Source: Thermodesulfobacteriota bacterium
Lineage (GTDB): Bacteria > Desulfobacterota_D > UBA1144 > Nemesobacterales > JAJCZQ01
Direction of reading: 5' to 3'
Assembly: GCA_965203965.1 (NCBI GenBank)
Contig: CBDBDR010000017.1
Span: forward strand, 128,001 to 192,000
Length of the DNA stretch: 64,000 nucleotides
This document shows positions 7,782-8,948 of the stretch, in pieces; positions within the stretch are counted from its first letter, which is position 1, and each line of letters begins with the position of its first letter. The translations under genes were made by a program, and so were the position numbers. The notes under the pieces were generated by a model. It was not told the DNA's origin. It ran no database searches and saw only the letters and a program-made list of their open reading frames with translations.

Positions 7782-8948
7782 TTATATTGCTTTTTTCAAT
7801 AACTCCGTCTTATCTGTTTTTTCCCAGTTAAAGTTTTTTTCTTTTCTGCCAAAGTGACCATAAGACGCCGTATTCCTGTATATGGGTCTTAGCAGATCAA
7901 GAGTTTCTATAATCCCCTTGGGTTTCAGTTCAAAAACCTCTTTTATAGCTCCTGATATTTTATTCTCGGGTTCCTCGCCCGTTCCAAAAGTGTCCACCAT
8001 AACTGATACCGGATCAGCCACGCCTATAGCGTAGGCAAGTTGCACCTCACACTCTTTCGCCAGTCCACTTGCAATAACATTTTTTGCAACATATCTTGCC
8101 ATGTAGGCAGCACTTCGGTCAACTTTTGAAGGGTCTTTTCCTGAAAATGCCCCACCACCGTGCCTTGCCCATCCTCCGTAAGTATCAATTATTATTTTCC
8201 TTCCCGTTAGACCGGCATCTCCTGCTGGTCCCCCGACGACAAACCTTCCTGTGGGATTTATATATATTTTGGTATTTGCGGTAATAAGATTGTTTTCAAT
8301 GGTGCTTTTTATGACTTCTTCATATATTCCCTCATAGATGGTTTTGTTATTGGCATCTTCTGAGTGCTGGGATGAAATAACAATGGCGTCTATTTCCACG
8401 GGTTTTTTATTTTCATATCTAAACGTAACTTGGGATTTGCCATCGGGCTTCAGGAAGTCCAAAGTGCCATCCTTGCGTTTTTCGGATAATTTTTTTGTCA
8501 GCTTGTGAGCGTAAAGAATAGGGGAAGGCATAAGGTCTGGTGTTTCATCCGTTGCATATCCAAACATCAGTCCCTGATCTCCTGCTCCCTGCTCTTTTTG
8601 TTCAGTGGCAGTAACGCCAAGACTAATATCAGGGCTTTGAGAGTGAATTCGTAATTCAACTTCAGATGATTTGTCATCAAATTGCAAATCCGGATTGTTG
8701 TAGCCTATTTCCCTGATAACTTTTTTAACCAATTGTTCCTGATCTATTTTGTCAAACTGTGCTTTTGATGTAACCTCACCGGCTACCACAATAAATCCGG
8801 CGGTTACCATTGTTTCAACCGCTACCCTTGAACTTGGATCCTGGCGGATAAACTCATCCAGGAATGCGTCTGATATTTGATCACAGATTTTATCGGGATG
8901 TCCTTCAGTAACTGATTCTGAAGTAAAAATAAAATTTTCCAGAGACAT
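7782..8948 (-). CDS. metK: S-adenosylmethionine synthetase
   Basis: [28 protein letters not shown] motifs. Confidence 0.98.

What the first reader, a model, noticed from the sequence alone, without database searches (positions are those of the whole stretch)
8560..8948. MetK N-terminal third looks thaumarchaeal-like: possible inter-domain chimera
Seen: residues ~28-120 read [21 protein letters not shown]....[20 protein letters not shown]...[39 protein letters not shown]. This departs from the usual bacterial pattern (DAILDA, RVACET, GEITT.AYVD) and includes a short FDKxxQE insertion. From memory and unverified, these are signatures of the bacterial-type MetK of Nitrosopumilus-like ammonia-oxidising archaea. 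The remainder ([34 protein letters not shown]) looks ordinarily bacterial. Inference: partial allelic replacement of an essential gene in its native metK-ahcY operon by archaeal DNA, or this lineage is close to the donor of the archaeal gene.
Basis: inference. Interest (0 to 1): 0.7.

Follow-up and report, generated by a model that had tools for sequence, protein, structure and literature searches.

The report
Archaeal segment inside a bacterial metK
In a small group of sponge-associated Dadabacteria, about a quarter of the single-copy gene for SAM synthetase (MetK) has been replaced by the matching piece from ammonia-oxidising archaea, an unusually clear case of a gene fragment crossing between domains of life.

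Summary
Window 7782-8948 (minus strand) encodes a complete, single-copy bacterial-type MetK (388 aa), followed directly by ahcY.

- **Archaeal part.** Residues 21-115 are 72-81% identical to Nitrosopumilaceae MetK. They are only 38-53% identical to every other genome of the organism's own phylum.
- **Native part.** Residues 134-388 are 83-84% identical to the nearest ordinary Dadabacteria and 56-63% to the archaea.
- **Trees.** The N part nests several well-supported nodes deep inside Nitrosopumilaceae and shares a 3-residue insertion with them. The C part nests inside Dadabacteria.
- **AU tests.** They reject the alternatives (p 6e-7 and 1.6e-78). Nesting within the archaea is rejected-as-absent at p 4e-5 on a thinned set, but is not significant on the full set (p 0.23).
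- **Breakpoints.** Both lie in the two most conserved motifs, [12 protein letters not shown] and [15 protein letters not shown].
- **Not an assembly artefact.** The same mosaic, with the same breakpoints, occurs in 12 of 12 sequences of one clade. That clade covers two genera, 3 of 120 phylum genomes.
- **Age and state.** The event is old: codon composition matches the host gene and both parts are under purifying selection.

The parts
7782..8948 (-). metK: complete bacterial-type methionine adenosyltransferase, 388 aa plus stop; the only copy in the genome
   Evidence: Searches give the ORF. One search gives Pfam N 6-106, M 119-236 and C 238-377. One search gives TIGR01034 at 581 bits against a cut-off of 309.4. 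One search finds one match in G000, which is 99.48% complete.
8928..8948 (-). Codons 1-7 (MSLENFI): native Dadabacteria-like 5' end
   Evidence: these codons are identical to non-mosaic P0012 except at residue 2. Nitrosopumilaceae read MTNNFL and are one residue shorter. Dadabacteria-like states at residues 1 and 7 in 12 of 12 mosaic sequences.
8889..8927 (-). 5' crossover zone: codons 8-20 ([13 protein letters not shown]), invariant in all groups
   Evidence: the last Dadabacteria-like site is residue 7 and the first archaeal-like site is residue 21/22; present-day Dadabacteria and Nitrosopumilaceae DNA is 74-87% identical here, with exact runs of 5-14 nt.
8604..8888 (-). Minimal archaeal-derived segment: codons 21-115. 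It equals most of the Pfam N-terminal domain plus the loop [11 protein letters not shown].
   Evidence: Searches give the identity profiles. Searches give the trees and the AU tests; nucleotide identity is 71-73% to Nitrosarchaeum against 50-51% to non-mosaic Dadabacteria; the segment is modelled as helix 18-36, strands 41-49 and 52-60, helix 67-81 and strand 96-103.
8733..8754 (-). FDKIDQEQ (residues 65-72), holding the 3-residue insertion shared only with a Nitrosopumilaceae subclade
   Evidence: the insertion is present in the mosaic clade and in L146, L138, L145, L149, L147, L151 and L166. It is absent from L133, L123, L114, L132, L002 and from all ordinary Dadabacteria shown. One search shows a 3-residue gap against E. 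coli MetK.
8550..8603 (-). 3' crossover zone: codons 116-133 ([18 protein letters not shown]), mostly invariant
   Evidence: the last archaeal-like site is residue 113-115 and the first Dadabacteria-like site is residue 134/137; donor-like and recipient-like DNA is 67-78% identical here, with exact runs of 8-17 nt.
7785..8549 (-). Native part: codons 134-388 (Pfam central and C-terminal domains)
   Evidence: 83-84% identical to non-mosaic P0012-14 and 56-63% to Nitrososphaeria. Searches place it inside Dadabacteria. One search gives the AU test.
6506..7780 (-). ahcY (adenosylhomocysteinase), directly downstream; native and not mosaic
   Evidence: ahcY is adjacent to metK in 3 of 3 mosaic loci and 26 of 27 non-mosaic Dadabacteria loci, and in 0 of 39 Nitrososphaeria loci. 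AhcY identity falls smoothly: 87-88%, 84%, then 70-80%.
9115..9789 (+). rpe (ribulose-phosphate 3-epimerase-like ORF), divergent upstream neighbour; conserved synteny marks the locus as native
   Evidence: an rpe homologue lies upstream of metK in L085 and L087 and in 11 further same-order loci.

Best explanation
The gene is a working bacterial metK in which an internal stretch of about 95-125 codons was replaced by the homologous stretch of a Nitrosopumilaceae metK. The replaced stretch runs at least over residues 21-115 and at most over 8-133. It covers the first alpha/beta module and the loop that follows it. The archaeal gene is itself a bacterial-type MetK that Thaumarchaeota acquired long ago.

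The replacement happened once, in the common ancestor of two Dadabacteria genera. This was after that ancestor split from its nearest ordinary relatives. Both crossovers fell in the two most conserved motifs of the enzyme (HPDK and GAGDQG), where donor and recipient DNA still share short exact matches. The 5' seven codons, the promoter side (rpe), the central and C-terminal domains and the downstream ahcY stayed native.

The hybrid has since been inherited vertically, has taken on the host's codon composition and is under purifying selection, so it serves as the cell's only SAM synthetase.

Shown: the mosaic itself, its breakpoints, the donor clade, one clade of carriers, and native synteny. 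Inferred: single event, functionality, microhomology-guided crossovers, and whether the fragment entered directly or through a transient full-length second copy.
For: **Identity to the window, residues 21-115 / 134-388.**
- Mosaic kin: 73-80 / 84-87%.
- Nearest non-mosaic Dadabacteria (P0012-14): 40-43 / 83-84%.
- Same-family genus g3: 43-44 / 76-78%.
- Nitrosopumilaceae: up to 81 / 57-62%.
- The sliding-window table shows the two crossovers.

**Phylum-wide.** 120 genomes were searched and 114 had a match. N-part identity is 100, 77 and 76% in G000, G003 and G005, and at most 53% in the other 111.

**N-part tree (69 rows, careful).** The mosaic clade lies inside Nitrososphaeria behind five starred nodes (100/98, 100/96, 100/99, 100/92, 99/86). 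The archaea alone form a clade in 0 of 200 bootstrap trees.

**AU tests on the N part.** Archaea alone as one clade is rejected (dlnL 44.8, p 4.2e-5). Mosaic clade plus Dadabacteria as one clade is rejected (dlnL 94.9, p 6.4e-7). On the full 131 rows the latter is also rejected (p 8.6e-4).

**C-part tree.** Mosaic clade 100/93; with P0012 97/85; with P0013/14 98/92; with genus g3 95/96; inside Dadabacteria 100/98. AU rejects mosaic clade plus archaea (dlnL 131.7, p 1.6e-78).

**Shared insertion.** The 3-residue insertion is shared with one Nitrosopumilaceae subclade only.

**N-part search of 5.8 billion proteins.** Every organism name among the 120 listed hits is Nitrosarchaeum, Nitrosopumilus, Nitrosopumilales or Thermoproteota archaeon.

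**Focused N tree.** The 12 mosaic rows join P0123, P0124, L147 and L166 at 97/97.

**Not an artefact.** The same breakpoints occur in 12 of 12 mosaic sequences. One of them lies on a single-contig 2.0-Mb genome, G003. The window's gene lies on a contig of at least 1.5 Mb.

**Native locus.**

**Old and functional.** GC3 is 33.7% in the N part and 36.9% in the C part, against 10-19% in Nitrosopumilus/Nitrosarchaeum. dN/dS between G003 and G005 is about 0.10 in both parts. The gene is single copy. All conserved MetK motifs are intact.
Against: - On the full 131-row set, nesting of the mosaic clade inside the archaea was not significant (archaea alone as one clade: dlnL 27.2, p-AU 0.232). It became significant only after I thinned the set to 69 rows. 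The thinning removed two long-branched archaeal rows, L166 and L168, after I had seen the first tree.
- The N part has only 92-95 columns.
- In the focused N tree the 12 mosaic rows are not strictly one clade. The long-branched L166 falls among them, and they form one clade in only 19% of bootstrap trees. One clade is nevertheless not rejected (dlnL 2.05, p 0.435).
- The window's N part is slightly closer to P0123/P0124 (80-81%) than to its own mosaic kin (73-80%). This fits a slow archaeal branch but does not exclude a second exchange.
- The mosaic group was first recognised by the feature itself, though it coincides with a C-part clade and with genera g1 and g2.
- Trees are unrooted.
- No biochemical evidence of activity exists.
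Confidence: 0.88

Rival explanations
1. The end product is the same but the route differs. The ancestor first acquired a full-length Nitrosopumilaceae-type metK, possibly through a virus or another bacterium carrying it. Recombination or gene conversion between the two resident copies then made the hybrid, and the extra copy was lost.
For: Direct double crossover between DNA only about 60-65% identical is hard, whereas resident paralogues have many generations in which to recombine. Short exact matches of 5-17 nt exist only in the two motif blocks. Some Nitrososphaeria carry two kinds of SAM synthetase side by side, so transient redundancy does occur in nature.
Against: No second metK was found in any of the 3 mosaic genomes, nor a full second copy in the 41 same-order genomes searched. 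No full-length archaeal-like MetK turned up in the 120 phylum genomes. Nothing in the present sequence distinguishes the two routes.
Confidence: 0.4
2. Reverse direction, or 'close to the donor': the mosaic Dadabacteria lineage, or its N domain, is the source of the MetK of ammonia-oxidising archaea.
For: Over its whole length the window's MetK is unusually similar to the archaeal proteins for a bacterium (61-68%).
Against: In the C part the archaea form their own clade (99/89), far from Dadabacteria, and AU rejects joining them to the mosaic clade (p 1.6e-78). In the N part the mosaic clade sits inside Nitrosopumilaceae, with Nitrososphaera-like and other archaeal rows branching off first (AU p 4.2e-5, but p 0.23 on the full set). 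The N parts of the nearest ordinary Dadabacteria group with other Dadabacteria.
Confidence: 0.03
3. Convergent or accelerated evolution of the N domain, for example driven by low G+C content, without any transfer.
For: The window (about 39-41% G+C) and Nitrosopumilus/Nitrosarchaeum (31-35%) are both A+T-rich.
Against: - 18 to 21 of the informative sites in residues 21-115 point to the archaea and none to Dadabacteria, and the signal stops sharply at both motif blocks.
- The two groups share a 3-residue insertion.
- Mosaic kin with GC3 of 44-53%, and the archaeal L147 with GC3 of 56%, carry the same N part.
- The equally A+T-rich C part shows no such pull.
- N-part dN is 0.14 to Nitrosarchaeum against 0.59 to same-family G004.
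Confidence: 0.02
4. Assembly or binning chimera that joins archaeal and bacterial reads at a conserved motif.
For: The breakpoints lie in conserved motifs, which is where assemblers can mis-join. The samples are metagenomes.
Against: Twelve different sequences, 72-87% identical to each other, show the same junctions. They come from NCBI, ENA and Logan assemblies, and one is on a single-contig 2.0-Mb genome. The N part is only about 72% identical at DNA level to any archaeal gene seen and has the host's GC3, so it is not present-day archaeal DNA. Contigs of 64 kb and 83 kb span the whole gene without a difference, although those runs may be the source of this DNA.
Confidence: 0.01

Closest known systems
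Bacterial-type MetK (TIGR01034; E. coli MetK, PDB 1fug/1rg9/7ll3)
   Same: It has the full three-domain architecture and all conserved motifs. phmmer gives E 1e-151 to E. coli MetK over residues 6-387. The function is taken to be SAM synthesis from methionine and ATP.
   Different: One module has a different ancestry from the rest. It also carries a 3-residue insertion and a TAT-containing loop ([12 protein letters not shown]) in place of the usual QSPDI..GVD.
Bacterial-type methionine adenosyltransferase of Thaumarchaeota, reported as an early bacteria-to-archaea transfer (Deschamps et al. 2014, PMC4122925; I saw only the legend of Fig. 5A)
   Same: This is the donor-side gene family. I confirmed it here in 95 of 151 Nitrososphaeria genomes.
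   Different: That report concerns a whole gene moving from bacteria to archaea. Here a fragment of that gene moves back into a bacterium and replaces the homologous part of the resident gene.
Mosaic genes by partial horizontal transfer (for example Boc & Makarenkov 2011, PMC3241670, where I saw the search listing and abstract only; mosaic penicillin-binding-protein genes of streptococci and Neisseria, recalled)
   Same: An internal segment of a resident gene is replaced by donor DNA, and adjacent segments give discordant trees.
   Different: The classic cases join close relatives with DNA more than about 80% identical. Here donor and recipient belong to different domains of life, and the homologous DNA is only about 60-65% identical outside the motifs.
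Recombination between EF-1alpha genes of distantly related archaeal lineages (Inagaki, Susko & Roger 2006, PNAS; recalled, not read here)
   Same: This is also intragenic recombination in an essential, conserved housekeeping gene between distant lineages.
   Different: That case lies within Archaea. The present one crosses the domain boundary and has a clear set of non-mosaic sister sequences that bracket the event.

Membership tests
Bacterial-type methionine adenosyltransferase (MetK, TIGR01034 / PF00438+PF02772+PF02773) | Whole-protein score above the curated equivalog cut-off | tested here: met
   581 bits against a cut-off of 309.4, covering model positions 1-377.
Bacterial-type methionine adenosyltransferase (MetK, TIGR01034 / PF00438+PF02772+PF02773) | Three consecutive S-AdoMet_synt domains (N, M, C) | tested here: met
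   N 6-106 (134 bits), M 119-236 (163 bits), C 238-377 (230 bits).
Bacterial-type methionine adenosyltransferase (MetK, TIGR01034 / PF00438+PF02772+PF02773) | Conserved catalytic and binding motifs ([45 protein letters not shown]) | tested here: met
   All are present and aligned with E. coli MetK, and they are invariant in the 36-sequence alignment. That these residues are catalytic is recalled, not tested.
Bacterial-type methionine adenosyltransferase (MetK, TIGR01034 / PF00438+PF02772+PF02773) | Enzymatic activity (SAM from ATP and methionine) | not testable with these tools
   Activity is inferred from single copy in a 99.5%-complete genome and from dN/dS of about 0.10 in both parts.
Archaeal-type methionine adenosyltransferase (PF01941 / NF003366) | Score above the family cut-off | tested here: not met
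   NF003366 scores 22.1 bits against a cut-off of 435. The archaeal-derived segment comes from the bacterial-type enzyme of the archaea, not from the archaeal-type enzyme.
Mosaic gene made by partial horizontal transfer | Adjacent segments give significantly discordant phylogenies | tested here: met
   Searches give the trees. AU tests give p 6.4e-7 for the N part, 8.6e-4 on the full set and 1.6e-78 for the C part.
Mosaic gene made by partial horizontal transfer | Localised breakpoints | tested here: met
   Searches place the crossovers between residues 7 and 21/22 and between residues 113-115 and 134-137. No formal GARD or RDP analysis was run.
Mosaic gene made by partial horizontal transfer | Non-mosaic close relatives in the recipient lineage, at a native locus | tested here: met
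   P0012-14 (C part 83-84%, N part 40-43%) and genus g3 are non-mosaic. In the phylum, 111 of the 114 genomes with a match are ordinary.
Mosaic gene made by partial horizontal transfer | Donor clade identified, with the recipient segment nested inside it | tested here: met
   plus the shared insertion. AU gives p 4.2e-5 on the thinned set, but p 0.232 on the full set with long-branched rows, so support depends on the row set.
Mosaic gene made by partial horizontal transfer | Not an assembly artefact | tested here: met
   Twelve diverged copies show the same junctions, one of them on a single-contig genome. The N part has the host's GC3.

The most novel reading that the evidence does not exclude
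The swap is not a neutral accident but one visible trace of regular DNA traffic between Nitrosopumilaceae and Dadabacteria living together, for example in sponges. On this reading the archaeal module was kept because it changes how the enzyme behaves. The module carries the active-site loop and, by analogy with mammalian enzymes, the surface through which dimers pair. It could alter SAM feedback, substrate affinity, or resistance to a phage- or host-made MetK inhibitor. If so, further archaeal fragments should be found inside other core genes of these genomes.
Probability: 0.15. Interest if true: 0.8.

Novelty: new variant of a known kind. Interest (0 to 1): 0.64.

Why it matters
Transfers of whole genes between archaea and bacteria are well documented. 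Replacement of only part of an essential, single-copy housekeeping gene by DNA from the other domain is rarely demonstrable, because it needs a sharp breakpoint, an identified donor clade and non-mosaic sisters. All three are present here.

The case shows that recombination at short conserved motifs can splice modules of an enzyme across the deepest divide in cellular life and still leave a working protein. It also warns that single-gene trees and marker-based taxonomy can be misled by fragments.

It provides a natural domain-swap experiment for MetK: one module from a lineage about 40% different in that region, working with two native modules. Finally, it points to physical DNA exchange between ammonia-oxidising archaea and Dadabacteria.

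Tried and rejected
- **Regulatory RNA.** The Rfam scan of 8800-9200 found only a sub-threshold snoRNA match (19 bits against 58, E 0.96), so no riboswitch upstream of metK was detected.
- **Promoters and terminators.** The scan of 6300-9300 gave fewer promoter-like sites than shuffles (5 against 7.7) and no terminator-like site. It was uninformative.
- **Protein names.** The listing of cluster members for 10 key proteins returned no names.
- **Earlier findings.** The search of earlier findings had nothing near this place.
- **Laid contigs.** Run X5, from an independent study, covers 7600-8301 and 8583-9122 without a difference but leaves 8302-8582 uncovered. It therefore does not bridge the 3' junction. 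Run X6 covers only three short pieces. Runs X7 and X10 span everything but may be the source of this DNA. None of this weighs either way; the diverged copies carry the argument.
- **Nesting test on the full set.** On the full 131-row N-part set the test was not significant (p 0.232).
- **Structure model.** Mean pLDDT is 80.4 and pTM 0.82. The swapped segment is folded confidently (block means mostly 78-95). Residues 234-276, the glycine-rich motif region, fall below 50, so I made no contact analysis between swapped and native parts.
- **Base composition.** The profile showed no step at the junction, which fits an old, ameliorated event and is not evidence against transfer.
- **Literature.** Five searches found no report of a mosaic metK in Dadabacteria or of an archaeal fragment in a bacterial metK. 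The library lacks most subscription journals.
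Full report
**What is there**

The ORF at 7782..8948 on the minus strand encodes a 388-residue protein. It has the three S-AdoMet synthetase Pfam domains: N 6-106, M 119-236 and C 238-377. It scores 581 bits against the metK equivalog TIGR01034, whose cut-off is 309.4. It does not match the archaeal-type enzyme: NF003366 scores 22 bits against a cut-off of 435.

It is the only metK match in the genome, which has 1.99 Mb in 17 contigs and is 99.48% complete. ahcY (6506..7780, minus strand) abuts its stop codon. A ribulose-phosphate-epimerase-like gene lies divergently upstream at 9115..9789.

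The organism names attached to the closest database proteins are Candidatus Dadabacteria and Thermodesulfobacteriota MAGs. Public runs that hold this DNA are mostly labelled sponge metagenome.

I centred a search on a Nitrososphaera MAG found. Of 151 Nitrososphaeria genomes sampled, 95 carry a bacterial-type MetK above the TIGR01034 cut-off, many of them on single-contig genomes. That count includes the unpublished genome G174; without it the count is 94 of 150. Of the same 151 genomes, 58 carry the archaeal-type enzyme PF01941. The two sets are largely complementary.

A bacterial origin of the thaumarchaeal methionine adenosyltransferase is in print. It appears as an example of early transfer in Deschamps et al. 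2014 (PMC4122925). I saw only the legend of Fig. 5A.

**The mosaic signal**

The table gives identity to the window's protein for each group.

| Group | Residues 21-115 | Residues 134-388 |
|---|---|---|
| 11 closest sequences (G003, G005, P0003-P0011) | 73-80% | 84-87% |
| Next-closest proteins (P0012-P0014) | 40-43% | 83-84% |
| Same-family genus g3 | 43-44% | 76-78% |
| Rest of the order | 38-50% | 69-77% |
| Nitrososphaeria: Nitrosopumilaceae (rest of the class down to 50%) | 60-81% | 56-63% |

A 30-residue sliding window shows the switch directly. From window 16-45 to window 91-120, identity to the archaea tracks identity to the mosaic kin. It reads, for example, 70.6 against 71.7% at 61-90, where the nearest ordinary Dadabacteria give 25.3%. 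From window 121-150 onwards the Dadabacteria track the kin and the archaea fall to 20-60%.

Informative sites split 18 archaeal-like to 0 Dadabacteria-like in residues 21-115, and 3 to 36 in residues 134-353. Residues 1 and 7 are Dadabacteria-like (Fisher p 3.4e-10).

DNA and substitution rates agree.

| Comparison | N part | C part |
|---|---|---|
| Nucleotide identity to Nitrosarchaeum | 71-73% | about 62% |
| Nucleotide identity to mosaic kin | 73% | about 78% |
| Nucleotide identity to ordinary Dadabacteria | 50-51% | 70-72% |
| dN to Nitrosarchaeum | 0.14 | 0.32 |
| dN to G003 (mosaic kin) | 0.15 | 0.09 |
| dN to G004 (genus g3) | 0.59 | 0.15 |

**Trees and tests: full set**

I grouped the rows as follows, before building trees but after seeing the identity profile:
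- the mosaic clade;
- other Dadabacteria (same-order genomes, plus P0012-14);
- Nitrososphaeria;
- other bacteria and other archaea.

On 131 rows with quick IQ-TREE runs, the N part puts the 12 mosaic rows in a starred clade (SH-aLRT 97) with 19 Nitrosopumilaceae rows. The C part puts them with P0012-14 (96), inside Dadabacteria plus five bacterial MAG rows (95). AU rejects mosaic clade plus Dadabacteria for the N part (dlnL 90.5, p 8.6e-4). It does not reject the archaea alone as one clade (dlnL 27.2, p 0.232).

**Trees and tests: thinned set**

I then thinned the set to 69 rows for careful searches. The dropped rows were near-duplicates and long-branched rows, including the archaeal rows L166 and L168. 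This choice was made after I had seen the first tree.

- **N part.** The mosaic clade lies behind five starred nodes inside Nitrososphaeria (100/98, 100/96, 100/99, 100/92, 99/86). Nitrososphaera-like rows and several other archaeal lineages branch off first. The archaea alone form a clade in 0 of 200 bootstrap trees.
- **AU on the N part.** Archaea alone is rejected (dlnL 44.8, p 4.2e-5). Mosaic clade plus Dadabacteria is rejected (dlnL 94.9, p 6.4e-7).
- **C part.** The mosaic clade has 100/93 support. Its successive sisters are P0012 (97/85), P0013/14 (98/92) and genus g3 (95/96). All lie inside Dadabacteria (100/98), and the archaea form their own clade (99/89).
- **AU on the C part.** Mosaic clade plus archaea is rejected (dlnL 131.7, p 1.6e-78).

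**An independent character**

The FDKIDQEQ region holds a 3-residue insertion. The mosaic clade shares it with Nitrosopumilus, Nitrosarchaeum and some other Nitrosopumilaceae rows. Earlier-branching archaeal rows lack it, and so does every ordinary Dadabacterium shown. It is also a gap against E. coli MetK.

MAFFT placed the gaps differently in the two groups in the large alignments. This can only have lowered the measured similarity between them.

**Donor**

I searched residues 21-117 alone against 5.8 billion proteins. The hits returned were the mosaic kin interleaved with proteins whose only organism names are Nitrosarchaeum, Nitrosopumilus, Nitrosopumilales or Thermoproteota archaeon.

The 233 proteins then in hand fall into four clean classes:
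- 10 mosaic, including the window;
- 3 with an ordinary N part and a close C part (P0012-14);
- 104 Dadabacteria-like;
- 116 archaeal-like.

The two best archaeal matches, P0123 and P0124, are 81% and 80% identical in the N part and 57% in the C part. P0123 is 80% identical overall to an uncultured Nitrosopumilaceae MAG. In a focused N-part tree the 12 mosaic rows join P0123, P0124, that MAG (L147) and the long-branched L166 at 97/97. This group stands apart from the Nitrosopumilus/Nitrosarchaeum clade, which has 98/93 support.

**One event, not an artefact**

All 12 mosaic sequences show the same pattern: archaeal-like sites from residue 22 to 113/114, and Dadabacteria-like sites at residues 1 and 7 and from 134-137 onwards. 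They are 72-87% identical to each other and come from different assemblies. One is on a single-contig 2.0-Mb genome. The window's gene lies on a contig of at least 1.5 Mb.

In the focused N tree the mosaic rows are not strictly one clade, because L166 falls among them. They form one clade in 19% of bootstrap trees. Holding them together costs only 2.05 lnL (p-AU 0.435), and the C part makes them one clade (100/93). A single event is therefore the simplest reading, but it is not proven.

Among the species genomes of the family, the mosaic is in genera g1 and g2 (3 of 3) and not in g3 (0 of 2). In the whole phylum sample, 114 of 120 genomes had a match. N-part identity is 100, 77 and 76% in those three genomes and at most 53% in the other 111.

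**Native locus**

ahcY follows metK in 3 of 3 mosaic loci and in 26 of 27 other Dadabacteria loci. The one miss ends at a contig edge. ahcY follows metK in 0 of 39 Nitrososphaeria loci. AhcY identity declines smoothly from 87-88% to 84% to 70-80%. Codons 1-7 match P0012 except at residue 2 and differ from the archaeal N-terminus in sequence and length. Only an internal piece of metK is foreign.

**Mechanism**

The crossover zones are [13 protein letters not shown] (codons 8-20) and [18 protein letters not shown] (codons 116-133). These are the two most conserved blocks in that part of the protein. There, present-day Dadabacteria and Nitrosopumilaceae DNA is 67-87% identical, with exact runs of 5-17 nt. 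I infer recombination guided by these short matches.

Whether a fragment integrated directly, or a full-length foreign copy was resident for a time and recombined with the native gene before being lost, cannot be told. No second copy is seen in the genomes searched.

The event is old. GC3 of the N part (33.7%) equals that of the C part (36.9%), whereas Nitrosopumilus and Nitrosarchaeum have 10-19%. Third positions are near saturation. Between G003 and G005, dN/dS is about 0.10 in both parts.

**What the swapped piece is**

It matches the Pfam N-terminal domain (6-106) plus the loop up to the start of the central-domain model at 119. In the AlphaFold model (mean pLDDT 80.4, pTM 0.82) it forms helix 18-36, strands 41-49 and 52-60, helix 67-81 and strand 96-103. 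Block confidence there is mostly 78-95.

By the alignment to E. coli MetK, residues 104-114 ([11 protein letters not shown]) correspond to E. coli residues 98-108. I recall these as the active-site gating loop. A review of the mammalian enzymes names Q113 as part of the MATα2 gating loop, and assigns the stretch C35-C105 to the central domain that holds the tetramer together (PMC11942099; passages only). If the same holds here, much of what this module touches across subunits is another copy of itself. That would make it comparatively easy to swap. This last point is inference.

**Verdict**

The interpretation 'partial replacement of the native metK by archaeal DNA' is supported, and 'close to the donor of the archaeal gene' is rejected.

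The enzyme family is ordinary. What is unusual is a clean, bracketed, inter-domain replacement of one module of an essential single-copy gene, using a fragment that had itself once come from bacteria. I found no report of it in five literature searches, though the library lacks most subscription journals.

Noticed in passing
Nitrososphaeria genomes G043-G192: Among 151 Nitrososphaeria genomes, 95 have the bacterial-type MetK and 58 the archaeal-type enzyme (PF01941). The two sets are largely complementary. About 11 genomes have both: G090, G095, G109, G126, G143, G158, G172, G176, G184 and G185, plus G148 with fragments only. This may be a displacement caught in progress.
   Followed up: partly
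Loci L007, L011, L036, L153, L185, L205: MetK sequences from MAGs labelled Patescibacteria, Magasanikiibacteriota, Nanoarchaeota, Micrarchaeota, Woesearchaeota and Methanosarcinales group next to the Nitrososphaeria MetK in both the N-part and the C-part trees. This hints at a shared pool of this MetK type among small-genome lineages and ammonia-oxidising archaea.
   Followed up: no
Locus L008 (trees): A contig of a MAG labelled 'uncultured Spirochaetia bacterium' carries a MetK that pairs with Dadabacteria family f8 (G041) at 100/98 in both parts. This is probably a binning or labelling error, or a recent whole-gene transfer. Two groundwater 'Deltaproteobacteria' MAG rows (L014, L181) also sit next to or within the Dadabacteria.
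   Followed up: no
window 7780-7784: The longest ahcY ORF starts at a TTG (7780) that abuts the metK stop codon (7782-7784). An in-frame ATG lies six codons downstream. Either way the two genes are packed as one operon, with no terminator-like site between them.
   Followed up: partly
window 8607-8639 (residues 104-114): The loop [12 protein letters not shown] reads 'GVTAT' in the archaea and the mosaic clade, where E. coli has 'GVDRA' and ordinary Dadabacteria have 'GVD/GVN'. It may be a functional signature of the thaumarchaeal enzyme.
   Followed up: no
Genomes G109 and G139: In two Nitrososphaeria genomes the bacterial-type metK match is split into two adjacent pieces on one contig. Examples are G139:C25 127214-127432 with 126301-127221, and G109:C3 59850-59936 with 58805-59848. 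This suggests frameshifts or sequencing errors.
   Followed up: no
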